This document shows, one piece after another, positions 31,004 through 35,918 of a DNA stretch of 64,000 bases; the stretch's first letter is position 1, and each line of letters opens with the position of its first letter. Under the pieces are notes generated by a model. It ran no database searches. It was not told the origin of the DNA and was given only the letters and a program-made list of their open reading frames with translations. Origin of the DNA: Escherichia phage allfine; sequence record MN850633.1; one strand, 5' to 3'. The translations under genes and the position numbers were made by a program.

Positions 31004-31080
31004 TTGGAGAATCCGAAGGGACTCGAACCCTTATAAACCTGTTTTGCAGACAGGCACATAGCCATTTCTGTCACGGATTC
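31004..31080 (-). tRNA. tRNA-Cys (anticodon GCA)
   Basis: Reverse-complement T-arm GGGACTCGAACCC, 7 bp acceptor pairing, anticodon loop CUGCAAA. Confidence 0.55.
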
Positions 31081-31084
31081 AAAT

Positions 31085-31177
31085 TGGAGGAAGATACCAG
31101 ACTTGAACTGGTACACCGATTTCTCAGCTACTGGCAGTTTAGCAAACTGCTCCCTTACCTTTTAGGGTTAATCTTCC
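31085..31177 (-). tRNA. tRNA-Ser (anticodon GCU), long variable arm
   Basis: T-arm ACCAG-ACTTGAA-CTGGT, acceptor GGAAGAT/ATCTTCC, loop UUGCUAA. Confidence 0.5.
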
Positions 31178-31178
31178 A

Positions 31179-31913
31179 TTATTTCTGTAATGCGCTCTTC
31201 ATTTCTGGTGTTGCAATAGTGTCAATTACACCAGTTTTACAGGCATCATCAAACCAGTCTGGTAAGATACCTGCTAAGAACCCATTGATATTCGTTTTAA
31301 GGTACTCTGCAATAAGGGCAGCTTCTTCTTCAATCATCTGCACAACTTCATCTGCATAAGCTGTAATCTTTGAGATACCTTCATTAATCTTACTGACAGC
31401 TTGGTTAGCTAAATCAGAAACAGTATCAAGACCCTTGTCAATAGCGTCTTGTAAGTCACTTAATACATCGTTAACACTCTCTAGTGTACTGTTAATCGTA
31501 TCAATAGCTTTTTGACCATATTCTGTAGCAACACCCATAATACCACTGAACGGTGTACAACCAACTTGTTCTCCTGCTGCACCCATAACATTGGAATATC
31601 CCTTTGCTACCTGCATACGTGATGAAAACTCATCAATAGACTTTTGACCGTAGTCTGTTAGGGTCTTAGTAGTTGCTGTAGTGCTTGTAAGGCTTGTTGT
31701 AAAGCTGTTTAGAAGGACTGTTGTAAGTCCAGCAGCAACAAGTTTCTCCTGCATTGTAGGGTCTGTTACAGAACTAATAGAGCTTACAAGTGATGTAGAA
31801 GCAGCTACGGTTCCACCGAGAACTGCTGCACCAGTAATAAGTGGGTTAGAAAACCCTTTACCGGTTTTTAAGAGATTAAAAATCTCCTTACCTTGTTCTG
31901 TCATCTCTTTCAT
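31179..31913 (-). CDS. hypothetical protein, Ser/Thr-rich centre
   Basis: Track ORF 31179-31976 truncated to ATG at 31913 because 31930-32006 is a tRNA. Confidence 0.45.
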   Translation of the reverse strand: MKEMTEQGKEIFNLLKTGKGFSNPLITGAAVLGGTVAASTSLVSSISSVTDPTMQEKLVAAGLTTVLLNSFTTSLTSTTATTKTLTDYGQKSIDEFSSRMQVAKGYSNVMGAAGEQVGCTPFSGIMGVATEYGQKAIDTINSTLESVNDVLSDLQDAIDKGLDTVSDLANQAVSKINEGISKITAYADEVVQMIEEEAALIAEYLKTNINGFLAGILPDWFDDACKTGVIDTIATPEMKSALQK

Positions 31914-31929
31914 TAAGCACCTTTGAAAT

Positions 31930-32006
31930 TGGTAGTCCAGTGGGATTTGAACCCTCTTCTCATGTTTTTCAGACACGCGCTTTAACCATATAAGCTACTT
32001 GGACTA
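31930..32006 (-). tRNA. tRNA-Phe (anticodon GAA)
   Basis: T-arm GGGATTTGAACCC, loop CUGAAAA. Confidence 0.5.
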
Positions 32007-32011
32007 TAAAT

Positions 32012-32088
32012 TGGGGTGACCTACGGGATTTGAACCCGTATAGACCATGTTCACAGCATGGGTCATTACCATTTATGATAAGGCCACA
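32012..32088 (-). tRNA. tRNA-His (anticodon GUG)
   Basis: T-arm GGGATTTGAACCC, anticodon stem CCATG/CATGG, loop CUGUGAA. Confidence 0.55.
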
Positions 32089-32118
32089 TTTAAGGACTCT
32101 CGTAAGAATCCTTAGAAG

Positions 32119-32194
32119 TGGCAGCGGCATAAGGATTTGAACCTTAATAAGACAGCTTCAGAGACTGCTGCATTGCCAGTTATGCTATACCGCT
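32119..32194 (-). tRNA. tRNA-Gln (anticodon CUG), tentative
   Basis: T-arm TAAGG-ATTTGAA-CCTTA; anticodon stem has two G-U pairs, loop CUCUGAA. Confidence 0.4.
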
Positions 32195-32199
32195 AAATT

Positions 32200-32278
32200 T
32201 GGTACTCCATATCGGATTCGAACCGATACATAACACAGATTTTAAGTCTGGCCTCTCTGCCAATTGGAGTAATGGAGC
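32200..32278 (-). tRNA. tRNA, anticodon loop reads UAA (Leu-type) but class-I length
   Basis: T-arm ATCGG-ATTCGAA-CCGAT, acceptor 7 bp, loop CUUAAAA; no long variable arm. Confidence 0.4.
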
Positions 32279-32280
32279 AT

Positions 32281-32356
32281 TGGCGGGGGATGTTGGAATT
32301 GAACCAACTTCTTCGATTTCAAAGACCGAGGTTTTAACCTTGTAAACTAATCCCCT
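32281..32356 (-). tRNA. tRNA-Gln (anticodon UUG)
   Basis: T-arm GTTGG-AATTGAA-CCAAC, loop CUUUGAA. Confidence 0.5.
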
Positions 32357-32364
32357 TTAAATCT

Positions 32365-32922
32365 TTACTTTCTCAGTGGATGAATAAAGAATGCCAACAT
32401 AACTCTTTCCCTTGAGAATGCTCTTTCTTCTGGGACAACACTTTTTAGTTTCCATCCAATATAAATTCTCCAGTAAAATTGTTTACCAAAGATTTTAATT
32501 GATGGGATAAAAGCGAATAATCCCCAAGCATTCCTGTTCCACATTAGGAGATAACCAGTCTGATTATCTTCAGGGTTAGAACTTACGTTGATATTACCTT
32601 TCCACTTAGTAACATCTTTTACATCTCTTCCTAACACATGGTAAGAGAAGTTATAAGCTTTGTTTCTCCAGAGCCATCCAACTCTTTGCATGTAGACACC
32701 TAGTTTACCAATCCATCTAATATTAGCCCATCTTTTAACGTGACCTTCATCACCATCAATTGGGTTGTCATAGGTCTCCATCCATCTGAATCCAAAAGGT
32801 AGATGTCCTTTCTTCTCACTGTAGAATGGAACTACAAAAGGTGCTAAGATAACTGCTAAGATTGCTGCAAATGGCTCTAACAAAGCTAAGAAAATCCATG
32901 AAGCATACTTCAAATATCTCAT
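32365..32922 (-). CDS. membrane protein inside tRNA cluster (185 aa, Trp-rich)
   Basis: ORF in track; N-terminal hydrophobic segment; no recognisable catalytic motif. Confidence 0.45.
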   Translation of the reverse strand: MRYLKYASWIFLALLEPFAAILAVILAPFVVPFYSEKKGHLPFGFRWMETYDNPIDGDEGHVKRWANIRWIGKLGVYMQRVGWLWRNKAYNFSYHVLGRDVKDVTKWKGNINVSSNPEDNQTGYLLMWNRNAWGLFAFIPSIKIFGKQFYWRIYIGWKLKSVVPEERAFSRERVMLAFFIHPLRK

Positions 32923-32941
32923 CTAAATAGCCTCTTTAAAT

Positions 32942-33017
32942 TGGCGCAGGATAAGGGATTCGAACCCCTATTAACAGCTTCGTAGACTGTTGCTCTATCC
33001 ATTTGAACTAATCCTGC
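32942..33017 (-). tRNA. tRNA-Arg (anticodon ACG)
   Basis: T-arm AAGGG-ATTCGAA-CCCCT, acceptor GCAGGAT/ATCCTGC exact, loop CUACGAA. Confidence 0.55.
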
Positions 33018-34670: not shown

Positions 34671-34671
34671 T

Positions 34672-34748
34672 TGGAGGTTCAGATGGGAATCGAACCCACA
34701 TTCATAGGGCTTATGAGACCCTTGCATTACCTTATCTGCGACTGAACC
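34672..34748 (-). tRNA. tRNA-Met (anticodon CAU)
   Basis: T-arm ATGGG-AATCGAA-CCCAC, acceptor GGTTCAG/CTGAACC exact, loop CUCAUAA. Confidence 0.5.
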
Positions 34749-34752
34749 ATAT

Positions 34753-34828
34753 TGGTAGAAGTGGAGGGATTCGAACCCATCGCCTGTCAGATTAAAAGTC
34801 TGCCGCATAACCATTTTGCTACACTTCC
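34753..34828 (-). tRNA. tRNA-Lys (anticodon UUU)
   Basis: T-arm GAGGG-ATTCGAA-CCCAT, loop CUUUUAA; D-arm region identical to 33519-33594. Confidence 0.5.
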
Positions 34829-34829
34829 A

Positions 34830-35255
34830 TTAAATTACCTTTGTAGATAAGCTACCCAGACTTGCTTAAGGTCTGTAGCGATGTGCCTTGTTGGGTTTAA
34901 ATCTAGAATTTACCCTTTCACCCTTTGTGGTCGCATACTCACAGGTAAGCTTAATAACTTATCTACAAAGATAATTACCAGACCGTTGTTTATCATCTTA
35001 AGTGCTACCATTACACCAACTCGACATCTGCCGAGTGAAGGAATCGAACCTTCGCCTTTTCTTTACCGGAGAAATAGATTGTTTAAGTTTTGCTGTAAAC
35101 GGTCTTCTGTAAATTTGTTGAGCCAGACCAAGTTTTAAATTTTCAAAATTAAATTGGCTTGAAATTTCATACATTCTTGCTGTATTTGGTCTTCTGCTCC
35201 TTTAAAGAATACTCGTAAGAACTCTTTAAGGGAGGGGCTAAATAGCCCTCTCAAA
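34830..35255. other. non-coding gap in tRNA cluster with long-range inverted repeat, isolated T-arm-like motif and repeated box
   Basis: TTTGTAGATAAG at 34843-34854 pairs with CTTATCTACAAA at 34958-34969; GAAGG-AATCGAA-CCTTC at 35037-35053 without matching acceptor; box TTGCTGTAnnnGGTCTTCTG at about 35089 and 35190. Confidence 0.3.
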
Positions 35256-35257
35256 AT

Positions 35258-35334
35258 TGGCGGCTACGATGAGACTTGAACTCACATCATCTCCCGTGAC
35301 AGGGGAGTATTTTCTCCAGTTAAACTACATAGCC
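35258..35334 (-). tRNA. tRNA-Asp (anticodon GUC)
   Basis: T-arm ATGAG-ACTTGAA-CTCAC, anticodon stem CTCCC/GGGAG perfect, loop CUGUCAC. Confidence 0.55.
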
Positions 35335-35339
35335 TTTAT

Positions 35340-35427
35340 TGGTGTGCCGTGTAGGAGTCGAACCTACCGAGTCTCAATGACAAGGGATTTACAGTCCCCA
35401 CCGCTACCATCTACGGGATAACGACAC
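35340..35427 (-). tRNA. tRNA-Tyr (anticodon GUA), class II
   Basis: 88 nt, T-arm GTAGG-AGTCGAA-CCTAC, loop CUGUAAA, long variable arm as expected for bacterial-type Tyr. Confidence 0.55.
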
Positions 35428-35439
35428 ATTTAAATTTTG

Positions 35440-35511
35440 CGGTTAGTCAGGGATTCGAACCCTGTGCCATTCGCTTAACAGGCGACCGCACATACCTTAT
35501 GTGCTTCCTAA
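35440..35511 (-). tRNA. tRNA-Asn (anticodon GUU)
   Basis: T-arm CAGGG-ATTCGAA-CCCTG, loop CUGUUAA. Confidence 0.5.
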
Positions 35512-35580
35512 CCTTAATACATTGCCAGACCGTGTTTTTCTTTTATCCGCAAAAAGTAGTTTGTTGCTGAATACGGTCTT

Positions 35581-35656
35581 CTGTAAATTTGGAGGCGGGT
35601 GCAGGAGTCGAACCTGCCGATACCATGCTAATGAGACATGTGAGACGCCCTTTCTC
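35581..35656 (-). tRNA. tRNA with CAU anticodon (Met, initiator or Ile-lysidine type), tentative
   Basis: T-arm GCAGG-AGTCGAA-CCTGC, loop CUCAUUA; preceded by repeated box at 35554-35580. Confidence 0.4.
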
Positions 35657-35756
35657 TATACCCGCAATTCTTAATGACCAGACCAAATATCTTCTTTGTC
35701 CGATTTCGTGTCAGATGAGTAGATTAAGTTTGCTGTAATTGGTCTTCTGTCAAAAC

Positions 35757-35834
35757 TGGCGTTCCAGAAGGGATTTGAACCCTCAAATATCCACTTTGAA
35801 AGAGTGGTGACTTTACCATTTTGTCTACTGGAAC
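35757..35834 (-). tRNA. tRNA-Glu (anticodon UUC)
   Basis: T-arm AAGGG-ATTTGAA-CCCTC, acceptor GTTCCAG/CTGGAAC exact, anticodon stem CCACT/AGTGG perfect, loop CUUUCAA. Confidence 0.55.
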
Positions 35835-35841
35835 ATTAATT

Positions 35842-35918
35842 TGGTCTCTGTTGGAGGACTTGAACCTCCGGCCTTACCGCCCCAAACGGAACGCTCTACC
35901 AAGCTGAGCTAAACAGAG
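35842..35918 (-). tRNA. tRNA-Pro (anticodon UGG)
   Basis: T-arm GGAGG-ACTTGAA-CCTCC, acceptor CTCTGTT/AACAGAG exact, loop UUUGGGG. Confidence 0.55.

What the first reader, a model, noticed from the sequence alone, without database searches (positions are those of the whole stretch)
31004..35918. Large tRNA cluster (about 27 genes) co-transcribed upstream of the packaging and virion genes, with two embedded protein genes
tRNA genes on the minus strand are packed at 3-30 nt spacing and cover at least Cys, Ser (two), Phe, His, Gln (two), Arg, Val, Thr, Gly, Ala, Lys (two paralogs with different anticodons), Ile, Met, Asp, Tyr, Asn, Glu and Pro. Two ORFs (31179-31913 and membrane protein 32365-32922) sit inside the cluster. 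tRNA-Ala shows the G3:U70 identity pair, which supports the strand and register assignments.
Basis: seen in the sequence. Interest (0 to 1): 0.4.

Follow-up and report, generated by a model that had tools for sequence, protein, structure and literature searches.

The report
Phage tRNA operon with hidden RNAs
This is the well-known tRNA gene cluster of a Felix O1-type phage, but it also holds an unannotated, oddly built arginine tRNA found in many unrelated phages and four Y-RNA-like genes that go with a Ro60-like protein gene next door.

Summary
ARAGORN finds 25 tRNA genes, all on the minus strand, at 31005-35918, with two ORFs among them. The window is a Felixounavirus, 97% identical to phages AYO145A and momo. 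This cluster has been described since the Felix O1 genome paper, so the finding as written is ordinary.

The "spacers" are not empty.
1. 34265-34346 encodes an 82-nt tRNA with anticodon UCU and no D arm in the usual place. Covariation across 31 distinct sequences from unrelated phages supports its fold. It occupies the same slot where sister phages carry a canonical tRNA-Arg(UCU). AGA is the phage's most host-skewed codon.
2. 34039-34121 is a tRNA-Trp-like gene confined to this phage subfamily.
3. Four paralogous RNAs (Y1-Y4) share a bulged basal stem, and Y4 has the YrlA-type tRNA-like layout. The upstream gene (36084-37499, DUF2828) folds as Ro60. Similar RNAs flank distant DUF2828 genes, always on the same strand.

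Three sigma-70-like promoter matches and two terminator-like hairpins argue against obligate co-transcription with the packaging genes. None of the RNA functions has been tested experimentally.

The parts
35842..35918 (-). tRNA-Pro(UGG)
   Evidence: ARAGORN; Rfam 57.7 bits
35757..35834 (-). tRNA-Glu(UUC)
35672..35752 (-). Y1, a Y-RNA-like element. Layout: helix UGAC/GUCA, AGA bulge, helix AGACCAA/UUGGUCU, then the ACAGCAA motif.
   Evidence: Repeat family D10; folds; model R1 41.4 bits
35590..35666 (-). tRNA(CAU) no. 1, initiator-like. It has a U1.C72 mismatch, a GCGGG acceptor stem, U37 and U73.
   Evidence: ARAGORN. Not found by Rfam even at E<=10. 99% conserved.
35519..35586 (-). Y2, Y-RNA-like element
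   Evidence: R1 36.1 bits
35439..35513 (-). tRNA-Asn(GUU); CCA not encoded
35340..35427 (-). tRNA-Tyr(GUA), long variable arm
   Evidence: weak tRNA-Sec clan hit
35258..35334 (-). tRNA-Asp(GUC)
35117..35199 (-). Y3, Y-RNA-like element (helix GAGC/GCUC)
   Evidence: R1 32 bits with filters off
34972..35112 (-). Y4, YrlA-like RNA. Order of elements: basal bulged stem, V hairpin, T arm, closed 7-bp acceptor-like hairpin, D arm.
   Evidence: Folds of variants; consensus structure with 3 covarying pairs in the acceptor-like hairpin; R1 166 bits
34831..34978 (-). Long hairpin (about 24-bp perfect stem) just upstream of tRNA-Lys(UUU); role unknown, possibly an RNase III site
   Evidence: Inverted repeat I2; dG -47.7, z -5.65; compensatory U-A to C-G change in relatives
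34753..34828 (-). tRNA-Lys(UUU)
34672..34748 (-). tRNA(CAU) no. 2, elongator-Met-like
34595..34670 (-). tRNA-Ile(GAU)
34551..34579 (-). Internal sigma-70-like promoter match P3 (TTGACA-17-TATAGT, 11 of 12)
   Evidence: AT-rich upstream box repeated at three sites, family D17
34352..34386 (-). Conserved hairpin preceding the Arg(UCU) slot
   Evidence: I11; dG -17.6, z -3.9
34265..34346 (-). Non-canonical tRNA with anticodon UCU. No D arm between the acceptor and anticodon stems. A 3-bp helix encloses the anticodon arm. A 12-nt UAANUGGAGUAU segment precedes the T arm. CCA is encoded.
   Evidence: Rfam tRNA 31.7 bits; alleles; 31-sequence alignment A2; covariation; model R2 102.5 bits
34039..34121 (-). 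tRNA-Trp(CCA)-like gene with G73-CCA, a C.A-closed anticodon loop and a large D loop. The window copy has a U.U mismatch in the T stem.
33936..34025 (-). tRNA-Ser(UGA); ends CC, terminal A not encoded
33680..33775 (-). Long hairpin (26-nt arms) just upstream of tRNA-Leu(UAG); role unknown
   Evidence: I1; dG -37.6, z -6.7
33602..33679 (-). tRNA-Leu(UAG), short variable loop
33519..33594 (-). tRNA-Lys(CUU)
33437..33512 (-). tRNA-Ala(UGC) with G3:U70
33356..33430 (-). tRNA-Gly(UCC)
33273..33349 (-). tRNA-Thr(UGU)
33177..33272 (-). Conserved 96-nt structured spacer between Thr and Val, carrying two GAAGACCG-like motifs; function unknown
   Evidence: Folds about -29 kcal/mol in all variants; 96% conserved
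33102..33176 (-). tRNA-Val(UAC)
33023..33100 (-). tRNA-Leu(CAA), short variable loop
32942..33017 (-). tRNA-Arg(ACG)
32365..32922 (-). ORF of 185 aa, DUF7338 / phrog_2143, putative membrane protein of unknown function; absent from Moogleviruses
32281..32356 (-). tRNA-Gln(UUG)
32200..32278 (-). tRNA-Leu(UAA), short variable loop
32119..32194 (-). tRNA-Gln(CUG)
32088..32118 (-). Small conserved hairpin with a UUACGAG-type loop; a member of a 3-copy repeat
   Evidence: D16; z -3.4
32012..32087 (-). tRNA-His(GUG)
31930..32005 (-). tRNA-Phe(GAA)
31179..31913 (-). ORF of 244 aa, DUF7217 / phrog_2114, unknown function
31085..31177 (-). tRNA-Ser(GCU)
31005..31080 (-). tRNA-Cys(GCA), the last gene of the cluster
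30915..30966 (-). Terminator-like hairpin followed by a U run
   Evidence: z -4.87; annotated as a terminator in Michonne
30825..30842 (-). Second terminator-like hairpin followed by U6
35945..36065 (-). Two tandem sigma-70-like promoter matches, P1 (36065-36037) and P2 (35974-35945), upstream of tRNA-Pro
   Evidence: D17
36084..37499 (-). Ro60-like protein gene (471 aa; DUF2828 + DUF7788; HEAT-repeat ring plus vWA domain), immediately upstream on the same strand
   Evidence: Pfam and PHROG; AlphaFold2 model pLDDT 83.7; Foldseek top 9 hits are all Ro60

Best explanation
The region is the tRNA operon of a Felix O1-type myovirus (Felixounavirus).

What it contains (shown): 25 canonical tRNA genes plus two non-canonical ones. 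Together they cover all 20 amino acids.

How it is transcribed (inferred): host RNA polymerase starts at three sigma-70-type promoters and stops at terminators placed before the terminase genes.

What it does (inferred): it tops up tRNAs for the A/U-ending codons that the AT-rich phage uses far more than its host. AGA stands out most, especially in virion genes.

The AGA slot (shown for structure, inferred for function): in this phage the slot is filled by an 82-nt tRNA of rearranged architecture, not a cloverleaf tRNA. It has an acceptor stem, then a long arm made of a 3-bp helix plus the anticodon stem, then a conserved GG-containing segment, then the T arm. I read it as a working tRNA-Arg(UCU). 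It has probably spread between phages alongside HNH homing endonuclease genes.

The spacers (shown for structure and association, inferred for function): between the tRNAs lie four Y-RNA-like genes. They are probably released by the same RNase P and 3'-end processing that matures the tRNAs. They are probably partners of the Ro60-like protein encoded just upstream. That would form an RNA quality-control or RNA-decay particle like the bacterial Rsr/Y-RNA system.
For: Cluster and identity:
- 25 ARAGORN and 24 Rfam tRNA calls.
- 97% DNA identity to annotated Felixounavirus clusters.
- Felix O1 was reported with 22 tRNAs (PMC3185647).

Codon fit:
- AGA is 16.4 per 1000 codons in the window's ORFs, against about 2.1 in E. 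coli. That makes it the most skewed codon.
- AGA/AGG make up 50-100% of Arg codons in most virion and packaging genes.

Non-canonical Arg tRNA:
- In 31 distinct sequences, 98.9% of pair cells form standard pairs.
- 15 of 20 pairs show changes on both sides.
- The covariation score is 0.692, against 0.189 in shuffles and at most 0.161 with slid partners.
- The anticodon is UCU in 30 sequences and CCU in 1. U33 and A37 are invariant.
- It sits inside phage tRNA clusters that almost never hold a canonical Arg(UCU).
- In 27 Felixounavirus/Mooglevirus genomes the canonical and rearranged genes are mutually exclusive at the same site.
- It is rare in bacteria: 2 hits in 185,579 genomes, against 48 viral contigs.

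Y-like RNAs and Ro60:
- The four copies share one architecture.
- Y4 has the V-T-acceptor-D order described for YrlA (PMC4201824).
- The upstream protein matches Ro60 structures over its full length, E 5e-9 to 3e-7.
- In 75 distant DUF2828 loci, all 23 model hits lie on the gene's strand. In 10 loci they lie within 500 nt of the gene.
- The same arrangement appears in L090, whose protein is only 23% identical.

Transcription signals.
Against: - There are no expression, charging or binding data here.
- The window's rearranged tRNA carries G3:U70, A73, G2:C71 and G4:C69. That is the E. coli AlaRS identity set, so it might be charged with alanine.
- Its 3-bp helix is not in the minimum-free-energy fold, and the RNA is no more stable than shuffled sequence (z = 0.04).
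- The Y-like RNAs lack the bacterial GNCGAAN0-1G motif and do not match Rfam YrlA.
- Promoter matches in the region are no more frequent than in shuffles (20 found, 18.5 expected).
- The E. coli codon table came from memory.
Confidence: 0.8

Rival explanations
1. The tRNA set is mainly a counter-defence or self-sufficiency device. It replaces host tRNAs that are cleaved by anticodon nucleases or degraded during infection, and it is not mainly a codon-bias supplement.
For: - The set covers all 20 amino acids.
- It includes tRNAs whose codons are not skewed: Glu GAA ratio 1.04, Phe 1.05, Asp 1.2, His 0.9.
- It includes Lys(UUU), Tyr, Asn, Asp and His. From general knowledge these are classic targets of PrrC-type and colicin-type nucleases.
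- A Ro60/Y-RNA module, linked in the literature to RNA repair and decay (PMC7824862), lies in the same unit.
Against: - The most host-skewed codons (AGA, ACA, AAG, UCA, CUA, GUA, GCA, CCA) all have a Watson-Crick cognate phage tRNA.
- No anticodon-loop differences from host tRNAs were examined here.
- The two purposes are not exclusive.
Confidence: 0.35
2. The 82-nt UCU element is a dead tRNA-Arg gene. It would be a pseudogene scrambled by homing-endonuclease activity and carried along passively.
For: - ARAGORN never calls it.
- Genome annotators label it tRNA-OTHER or tRNA-TERM, or leave it unannotated.
- HNH genes lie directly 3' of it in several phages.
- Its folding energy is no better than that of shuffles.
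Against: - Compensatory changes occur in all four helices.
- Phages of Streptomyces and of Enterobacteria share the same architecture and invariant loop and junction nucleotides.
- The anticodon changes only to another Arg anticodon, CCU.
- A covariance model separates members (88-105 bits) cleanly from ordinary tRNAs (38 bits or less).
Confidence: 0.05
3. The UCU RNA is a structured, functional RNA but not an elongator tRNA. It could be a decoy for a host tRNA-Arg-targeting nuclease or modifying enzyme, a processing or stabilising cap for the downstream HNH mRNA, or an alanine-charged tRNA-like molecule.
For: - The AlaRS identity set is present in the window copy (sequence).
- HNH ORFs of at least two kinds start 8-70 nt after its CCA.
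- The architecture is unprecedented for bacterial translation.
Against: - Many copies have no HNH neighbour. The window has none, and neither do phi92, Mydo or A4.
- G3:U70 is not conserved across the family: G-C 14, C-G 7, G-U 7.
- It replaces the canonical Arg(UCU) gene exactly.
- The UGGAG segment keeps the G18-G19-A20 context needed by ArgRS (established identity rule; the mapping is inferred).
- Acceptor plus T arm form a normal 12-bp stack with CCA.
Confidence: 0.2
4. Y1-Y4 are only processing spacers or repeated regulatory hairpins of the tRNA operon and are unrelated to the Ro60-like protein.
For: - They lie exactly between tRNA genes.
- Rfam YrlA does not match them.
- The known Ro-binding motif is absent.
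Against: - Y4 has the full V-T-acceptor-D tRNA-like domain, with U8, A14, G18G19 and a T loop.
- The same motif family (AAGAnC..UACAGCAA...GnUCUG) recurs next to DUF2828 genes that are only 23-48% identical.
- All 23 hits in those loci are on the gene's strand.
Confidence: 0.15

Closest known systems
tRNA clusters of Felix O1 and other Felixounavirus/Ounavirinae phages (Whichard et al. 2010, PMC3185647; PMC8300805)
   Same: Same genes in the same order at 95-97% DNA identity. The embedded DUF7217 and DUF7338 ORFs and the occasional HNH insertions also match.
   Different: Published counts are 17-23 tRNAs from tRNAscan-SE. They omit the rearranged UCU tRNA, the Trp-like gene and all Y-like RNAs. 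The Felix O1 paper states that a tRNA for AGA was expected but not found.
D-arm-lacking mitochondrial tRNAs, e.g. metazoan mt-tRNA-Ser(AGY/AGN) with GCU or UCU anticodon
   Same: No D hairpin between the acceptor and anticodon stems. The helix on the anticodon side is extended. The T arm and acceptor stem are normal. The anticodon family, reading AGN codons, is the same.
   Different: This one occurs in phages of bacteria. It keeps a conserved GG-containing 12-nt segment on the 3' side of the anticodon arm. It is probably Arg rather than Ser. No dedicated elongation factor is evident. There is no shared ancestry, so this is an analogy only.
YrlA-type bacterial and phage Y RNAs with Ro60/Rsr (Chen et al. 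2014, PMC4201824; Thermus phage phiLo Ro60-Yrl, PMC12135203)
   Same: A Ro60-fold protein gene lies next to RNAs whose 5' and 3' ends form a bulged stem. One RNA carries a tRNA-like domain in the order V, T, closed acceptor, D. There are multiple Y RNAs per locus.
   Different: The protein belongs to Pfam DUF2828/DUF7788 and is not annotated as TROVE. The RNA motif is CAGAAGACC...ACAGCAA, not GNCGAAN0-1G. The Rfam YrlA model does not match. The RNAs are interleaved with a large tRNA array.
Phage T4 tRNA region with the SegB homing endonuclease (PMC2330249)
   Same: A phage tRNA cluster that harbours free-standing homing endonuclease genes able to drive inheritance of the neighbouring tRNA genes. 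From general knowledge, T4's cluster also encodes two stable non-tRNA RNAs.
   Different: SegB is a GIY-YIG enzyme, whereas the relatives here carry HNH genes. The window itself has no endonuclease gene in the cluster.

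Membership tests
Canonical bacterial-type tRNA genes (25 loci) | Cloverleaf recognised by an automated tRNA finder | tested here: met
   ARAGORN finds 25 of 25. Rfam tRNA reaches gathering score for 23. Tyr scores only as a tRNA-Sec clan hit, and CAU no. 1 is not found at all.
Canonical bacterial-type tRNA genes (25 loci) | Encoded 3' CCA | tested here: met
   23 of 25 end in CCA. Asn and Ser(UGA) do not.
Felixounavirus tRNA cluster | Synteny and high DNA identity to annotated members | tested here: met
   236 phage records cover at least 80% of the region at 85-97% identity. 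Gene order is identical in momo, AYO145A and bumzen.
Elongator tRNA-Arg(UCU), applied to 34265-34346 | 7-nt anticodon loop with U33, UCU and A37 | tested here: met
   The loop is CUUCUAA. U33, C35, U36 and A37 are invariant in 31 sequences.
Elongator tRNA-Arg(UCU), applied to 34265-34346 | Standard cloverleaf with the D arm between the acceptor and anticodon stems | tested here: not met
   Only 7 nt separate the two stems. A covarying 3-bp helix (columns 11-13 with 40-42) encloses the anticodon arm.
Elongator tRNA-Arg(UCU), applied to 34265-34346 | Charged by ArgRS and used by the ribosome | not testable with these tools
   Indirect support only: exact replacement of the canonical gene, heavy AGA use, and a retained GGA (A20-like) context.
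D-arm-lacking mitochondrial tRNA | Absence of the D hairpin with a normal T arm and acceptor stem | tested here: met
D-arm-lacking mitochondrial tRNA | Organellar origin with co-adapted translation factors | tested here: not met
   Found in 48 viral contigs and in phages of Enterobacteria and Streptomyces. Resemblance in how it works only, not membership.
YrlA-type Y RNA (Y4; Y1-Y3 resemble the shorter Y RNAs) | Encoded next to a Ro60 orthologue | tested here: met
   The gene at 36084-37499 has the Ro60 fold. Y1 begins about 330 nt downstream of it on the same strand.
YrlA-type Y RNA (Y4; Y1-Y3 resemble the shorter Y RNAs) | 5'/3' bulged basal stem plus a tRNA-like domain in the order V, T, acceptor-like, D | tested here: met
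   compared with the description in PMC4201824
YrlA-type Y RNA (Y4; Y1-Y3 resemble the shorter Y RNAs) | GNCGAAN0-1G Ro-binding motif | tested here: not met
   The 5' strands read ACAGAAGACC..(U/A)CAGCAA.
YrlA-type Y RNA (Y4; Y1-Y3 resemble the shorter Y RNAs) | Match to Rfam RF02553 | tested here: not met
   No hit on Y4 at E<=10. No hit at gathering score in 10 related loci.
YrlA-type Y RNA (Y4; Y1-Y3 resemble the shorter Y RNAs) | Physical binding to the Ro60 protein | not testable with these tools
   Only a genomic association: all 23 hits on the same strand across 18 distant loci.
Ro60 / TROVE protein (36084-37499) | HEAT-repeat ring plus a C-terminal vWA domain | tested here: met
   The top 9 Foldseek PDB hits are all Ro60 (9KOP, 2NVO, 1YVP, 2I91, 9NFA), aligned over the full length with TM 0.48-0.67.
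Ro60 / TROVE protein (36084-37499) | MIDAS-type DxSxS motif in the vWA domain | tested here: met
   D279, S281 and S283 are invariant in 30 homologues.
Ro60 / TROVE protein (36084-37499) | Sequence-level match to TROVE or to solved Ro60 proteins | tested here: not met
   Pfam reports only DUF2828 and DUF7788. phmmer against PDB sequences finds nothing.
Bacterial initiator tRNA (35590-35666) | Mismatch at 1:72 | tested here: met
   U1.C72, with G2-G6 as in E. coli tRNA-fMet. The E. coli sequence is from memory.
Bacterial initiator tRNA (35590-35666) | Three consecutive G:C pairs at the bottom of the anticodon stem | tested here: not met
   The stem is CAUGU/GCAUG.
Class II tRNA-Leu (three genes) | Long variable arm | tested here: not met
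   The variable loops are 4-7 nt. The 3-bp D stem, the 9-11-nt AAUUGG-type D loop and A73 are kept.
Free-standing homing endonuclease cassette in a tRNA cluster | An endonuclease ORF beside the tRNA gene | tested here: not met
   There is none in the window. One is present 3' of the same tRNA in bumzen, L026, L028, Felix O1, 7t3, Roth39, L054 and L070.

The most novel reading that the evidence does not exclude
Phages of very different hosts share a previously undescribed class of elongator tRNA. It is a tRNA-Arg(UCU/CCU) whose D arm is replaced by a helix enclosing the anticodon arm and a relocated GG loop. It works with the ordinary bacterial ArgRS, EF-Tu and ribosome, and it spreads with HNH homing endonucleases. 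In the same operon, DUF2828 proteins turn out to be a large, unrecognised phage branch of Ro60 with their own Y-RNA family embedded in tRNA arrays.
Probability: 0.45. Interest if true: 0.8.

Novelty: new variant of a known kind. Interest (0 to 1): 0.55.

Why it matters
The cluster itself adds nothing new. Three things inside it would matter if confirmed.

1. A rearranged tRNA working in bacterial translation. If the 82-nt UCU RNA is a functional tRNA, it would be a natural tRNA without a conventional D arm that uses standard bacterial translation factors. Such tRNAs are otherwise known only from animal mitochondria. This bears on the minimal requirements of ArgRS, EF-Tu and the ribosome, and on the design of orthogonal tRNAs. 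It also shows that standard tools miss a tRNA for the codon these phages depend on most. The Felix O1 authors remarked on exactly this gap.

2. A large unrecognised Ro60 family. Equating DUF2828 with Ro60 gives a function lead for a family with thousands of members (2842 proteins at E<=1e-5 among the 8000 candidates scored). It also supplies candidate RNA partners.

3. A genetic model. Both would become testable in easy E. coli and Salmonella phage systems.

Tried and rejected
- **Y4 as a circularly permuted tRNA gene (3' half before 5' half).** Rejected. The would-be anticodon loop is 6 or 7 nt long and is not conserved among relatives. The layout equals YrlA instead.
- **The 34268-34346 element as a decaying pseudogene.** Rejected on covariation.
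- **Low-threshold ARAGORN tmRNA and permuted-tmRNA calls in the cluster, and the weak Rfam tmRNA, miRNA, snoRNA and plastid hits.** These are noise, or antisense or partial tRNA matches.
- **Weak Rfam YrlA hit at 31944-32066 (17 bits).** It overlaps the Phe and His tRNAs and is not meaningful.
- **phmmer of the DUF2828 protein against PDB sequences.** No hits. A fold search was needed.
- **Thermodynamic folding of the UCU RNA.** Not informative (z = 0.04).
- **Literature searches for a D-arm-less phage tRNA or for Y RNAs in Felixounavirus.** Nothing found. The Nyerges et al. REP-phage paper could not be retrieved.
- **Retron Eco2 paper.** It mentions Felixounavirus only in a host-range panel.

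Full report
**1. Observation**

ARAGORN reports 25 tRNA genes in the window. All lie on the minus strand between 31005 and 35918. Rfam's tRNA model recovers 23 of them at gathering score and adds a 24th locus at 34268-34346.

The ORFs at 31179-31913 (or 31976 from an upstream GTG) and 32365-32922 are real open frames. It missed three tRNA-Leu and a second CAU tRNA.

Twenty-three genes encode CCA. Spacers inside blocks are 1-31 nt. Eight gaps of 76-752 nt also exist.

**2. Identity of the locus**

The 4.9-kb region matches 314 phage records. Of these, 236 cover at least 80% of it, and the best matches are 97% identical: Escherichia phages AYO145A and momo, and Salmonella phage FSL SP-012. All are Felixounavirus or related Ounavirinae.

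Annotated relatives show the same gene order. The Felix O1 genome paper already described 22 tRNAs in this region and discussed codon usage (PMC3185647). A comparative study reports 17-23 tRNAs per genome (PMC8300805).

**3. Transcription**

Three near-consensus sigma-70 promoter matches face the cluster. Two lie upstream of tRNA-Pro:
- 36065-36037, TTGACA-17-TAATAT
- 35974-35945, TTGACA-18-TAAAGT with a TG extension

One lies after tRNA-Ile:
- 34579-34551, TTGACA-17-TATAGT

All three share an AT-rich upstream box (repeat family D17). Promoter-like matches overall are no more frequent than in shuffled sequence, so this part is inference.

After tRNA-Cys there is a strong hairpin at 30966-30915 followed by a U run (z = -4.9). 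A second hairpin-U6 lies at 30842-30825. Both positions are annotated as terminators in Citrobacter phage Michonne.

I conclude that the cluster is probably its own host-polymerase unit, or units. It is probably not obligatorily co-transcribed with the terminase and virion genes.

**4. Codon usage**

I counted codons in 57 long ORFs of the window and compared them with an E. coli K-12 table quoted from memory.
- AGA is the most skewed codon: 16.4 against about 2.1 per thousand, and 40% of Arg codons.
- The next most skewed are ACA, AGG, ACU, AAG, UCA, UCU, GCU, CUA and GUA.
- The phage tRNAs are mostly U34 species cognate to the A-ending members of these families.
- In most virion and packaging genes (7751-30560, minus strand), AGA/AGG make up 50-100% of Arg codons. 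The gene at 23757-24863 (11%), the adjacent 24897-25274 (25%) and 20479-21831 (47%) fall below that.
- The Ro60-like gene upstream uses AGA/AGG for only 7% of its Arg codons.

This supports the usual codon-supplement reading. It also makes the AGA decoder the key slot.

**5. The AGA slot**

I aligned 27 Felixounavirus and Mooglevirus clusters. One site, about 250 nt downstream of tRNA-Ile, holds either of two genes:
- a canonical 77-nt tRNA-Arg(UCU), in 14 genomes
- an unrelated 82-nt sequence, in 13 genomes including the window, momo, AYO145A and bumzen

Felix O1 itself carries an identical copy of the 82-nt sequence.

No genome has both. The flanks are homologous right up to the gene ends. 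The 82-nt alleles differ by compensatory changes in the anticodon stem: GCGGU/ACCGC, GCUGU/ACAGC and UCUGU/ACAGA.

Rfam aligns the element as acceptor stem, 4 unaligned nt in place of the D arm, anticodon arm, a 20-nt insertion, and T arm (31.7 bits). ARAGORN never calls it.

**6. A widespread family**

BLAST finds the element at 83-90% identity in many unrelated phages:
- Salmonella jumbo phage 7t3, where it is annotated tRNA-TERM
- T5-like Klebsiella phages
- the Serratia Demerecviridae phage Kamaji
- Asteriusvirus A4 and PBECO4
- Proteus phage Mydo
- phi92
- rV5-like phages
- Erwinia phage Ep030
- Streptomyces phages

An anticodon-independent pattern finds it in 48 IMG/VR contigs. The same pattern hits only 2 of 185,579 bacterial species genomes, and both are metagenome bins.

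Thirty-one distinct sequences align without difficulty (A2). I proposed a structure with four helices: a 7-bp acceptor stem, a 3-bp helix (columns 11-13 with 40-42) enclosing a 5-bp anticodon stem, and a 5-bp T stem. The counts on that structure are as follows:
- 98.9% of cells form standard pairs.
- 15 of 20 pairs have changes on both sides.
- The covariation score is 0.692, against 0.189 in shuffles. With slid partners, no more than 45% of cells pair.
- The 3-bp helix is paired in 100% of cells, with U-A, G-C and A-U at one position and C-G, G-C and U-A at another.

Other properties of the family:
- The anticodon is UCU in 30 sequences and CCU in one. U33, C35, U36 and A37 are invariant.
- A 12-nt segment, UAANUGGAGUAU, precedes the T arm. 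Eleven of its 12 positions are invariant.
- A covariance model scores members at 88-105 bits and ordinary tRNAs at 38 bits or less.
- The element sits inside phage tRNA clusters that almost never contain a canonical Arg(UCU).

My reading is that this is a working tRNA-Arg. The D stem is replaced by a helix that extends the anticodon arm. The GG (elbow) nucleotides, followed by an A20-like adenine, are supplied from the 3' side. The mapping onto G18, G19 and A20 and onto ArgRS identity rules is inferred from established knowledge.

The Felix O1 authors wrote that a tRNA for AGA was expected but absent. This element fills that gap.

One unexplained point remains. The window copy also carries G2:C71, G3:U70, G4:C69 and A73, which is the AlaRS identity set. 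G3:U70 is not conserved across the family.

**7. Link to HNH genes**

HNH ORFs begin 8-70 nt after the CCA in the following genomes:
- bumzen, L026, L028 and Felix O1
- 7t3, Roth39, Kamaji, L054 and L070

Four of the six ORFs tested pass Pfam's HNH_3 cutoff. The bumzen-type ORF scores just below the HNH cutoff.

Relatives carry other insertions of about 360-470 nt directly after tRNA genes. Two were checked against annotation: the one after the UCU tRNA in bumzen and the one after tRNA-Leu(UAG) in Michonne. Both are HNH genes. The window has no such insertion.

By analogy with T4 SegB (PMC2330249), co-conversion by homing endonucleases is a plausible route for the cross-genus spread and for the clean allele replacement. 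This is inference.

**8. The Trp-like gene**

34039-34121 has these features:
- a 7-bp acceptor stem, G73 and CCA
- an anticodon stem closed by a C.A pair around the loop (C/U)UCCAA(A/C)
- a large D loop

Relatives show compensatory changes in the anticodon stem (AACGG/CCGUU versus GUAAG/CUUAC) and in the T stem (GGGG/CCUC versus UGGG/CCUA). The window copy has a U.U mismatch in the T stem.

A different allele in three of the aligned genomes is called tRNA-Trp by ARAGORN. In two of them a 418-nt insertion follows it. The element occurs in 235 records, almost all Ounavirinae phages, and is never annotated as a tRNA. Its functional state in this window is uncertain.

**9. Y-RNA-like genes and a Ro60-like protein**

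A 28-nt motif, CAAAUUUACAGAAGACCGUUUACAGCAA, recurs four times in the gaps (family D10). Each copy starts an element with the same architecture:
- a 4-bp helix that covaries between copies and relatives (UGAC/GUCA, UUAC/GUAA or UUGC/GCAA, GAGC/GCUC)
- a 5' AGA bulge opposite a single G
- a second helix, AGACCnn/nnGGUCU
- the motif (U/A)CAGCAA
- a variable apical part

The fourth element (34972-35112) contains, in order:
- a variable hairpin
- a perfect T arm (GAAGGUUCGAUUCCUUC)
- a closed 7-bp acceptor-like hairpin
- a D arm (GUGUAAUGGUAGCAC)

The acceptor-like hairpin covaries among relatives: ACUCGGC/GUCGAGU, ACACGU/GCGUGU and ACCCUUC/GAAGGGU. This V-T-acceptor-D order inside a bulged stem is exactly what Chen et al. 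described for YrlA Y RNAs (PMC4201824).

The gene immediately upstream on the same strand (36084-37499) belongs to Pfam DUF2828 + DUF7788 and to PHROG 850, 'RNA-binding protein'. Its AlphaFold2 model has pLDDT 83.7 and pTM 0.84. The nine best PDB matches are all Ro60 proteins, aligned over the full length:
- Thermus phage phiLo Ro60 (9KOP)
- Deinococcus Rsr (2NVO)
- Xenopus and human Ro60

A DxSxS MIDAS motif is invariant in the family.

A covariance model built from Y4 finds Y1, Y2 and Y3 in the window at 41, 36 and 32 bits. It also finds elements elsewhere:
- At least seven related elements lie downstream of a 23%-identical DUF2828 gene in contig L090.
- Twenty-three hits occur in 18 of 75 loci that encode 39-48%-identical homologues. 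All 23 are on the gene's strand, and many lie within tens of nucleotides of the gene.
- Those distant genes also lie within tRNA arrays.

Against membership in YrlA proper, Rfam's YrlA model does not match. The bacterial GNCGAAN0-1G motif is replaced by another.

I therefore call these a new variant of the Ro60/Y-RNA kind. Phage Ro60/Y-RNA pairs are already known from mycobacteriophages, CcrColossus, Bacillus phage G and Thermus phiLo. Function is inferred by analogy with Rsr/Y-RNA/PNPase: structured-RNA decay or quality control, possibly of the tRNA array itself.

**10. Other content**

- The two ORFs are DUF7217 and DUF7338, both of unknown function. DUF7338 is missing from Moogleviruses.
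- Two long, nearly perfect hairpins lie just upstream of tRNA genes: 33680-33775 and 34831-34978.
- A conserved 96-nt structure fills the Thr-Val gap.
- All spacers are 85-98% conserved, like the tRNAs.

**11. Verdict**

The cluster is already known.

The added value lies in three features that published annotations miss:
- a covariation-supported tRNA-Arg(UCU) of rearranged architecture, shared by many phage groups
- a lineage-specific tRNA-Trp-like gene
- a Ro60-like protein with four Y-RNA-like partners

All functional statements about these await experiment.

Noticed in passing
32200-32278, 33023-33100, 33602-33679 (minus strand): All three tRNA-Leu keep the class II body (3-bp D stem, 9-11-nt AAUUGG-type D loop, A73). 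Their variable loop is only 4-7 nt instead of a long variable arm. Proteus phage Mydo also annotates a 78-nt tRNA-Leu.
   Followed up: partly
35590-35666 (minus strand): CAU tRNA no. 1 has a U1.C72 mismatch, an acceptor stem like E. coli tRNA-fMet and an A:U second D-stem pair. It lacks the three G:C anticodon-stem pairs and has U37 and U73. [quoted passage not shown]
   Followed up: partly
34265-34346 (minus strand): The window's rearranged UCU tRNA carries the full E. coli AlaRS identity set (G2:C71, G3:U70, G4:C69, A73). Phi92-type and Ep030-type copies have G3:C70. Which amino acid it accepts is an open question.
   Followed up: partly
L004, L021, L022 and L024, directly after the canonical tRNA-Arg(UCU); absent from the window (would lie after about 34263): A conserved insert of about 126 nt begins GGUCAAG and ends with a T arm, CUUGACU and GCCA. 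It looks like a tRNA-like RNA with a very large internal insertion.
   Followed up: no
34401-34544 (minus strand): The 144 nt just downstream of promoter match P3 are 98% identical across 26 relatives, more conserved than most of the tRNAs. They have no convincing ORF and no assigned RNA.
   Followed up: no
33177-33272 (minus strand): The Thr-Val spacer folds into a conserved 96-nt structure (about -29 kcal/mol). It contains two GAAGACCG-like motifs reminiscent of the Y-like basal stem, but model R1 does not recognise it.
   Followed up: partly
33680-33775 and 34831-34978 (minus strand): Two hairpins with 22-26-bp nearly perfect stems sit immediately 5' of tRNA-Leu(UAG) and tRNA-Lys(UUU). Their length suits RNase III. 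One shows a compensatory change in relatives.
   Followed up: partly
32088-32118, 34352-34386, 35202-35226 (minus strand): A small hairpin of the type UUAAAGAnUCUUACGAGnnUCUUUAA recurs three times between tRNA blocks (repeat family D16).
   Followed up: no
23757-24863 compared with neighbouring virion genes (minus strand): One virion-block gene uses AGA/AGG for only 11% of its Arg codons, while most of its neighbours use 50-100%. This would fit a very highly expressed protein such as the major capsid protein.
   Followed up: no
L128:293-616: A distant phage contig encoding a DUF2828 (Ro60-like) homologue has a permuted tmRNA hit above Rfam's gathering score (71.7 bits) a few kb upstream of that gene.
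   Followed up: no
34195-34225 (minus strand): A strong Shine-Dalgarno-like UAAGGAGGU is followed by a 7-codon ORF (MFSRTCK) between the UCU tRNA and the Trp-like gene. This lies within about 50 nt of where relatives carry HNH insertions.
   Followed up: no
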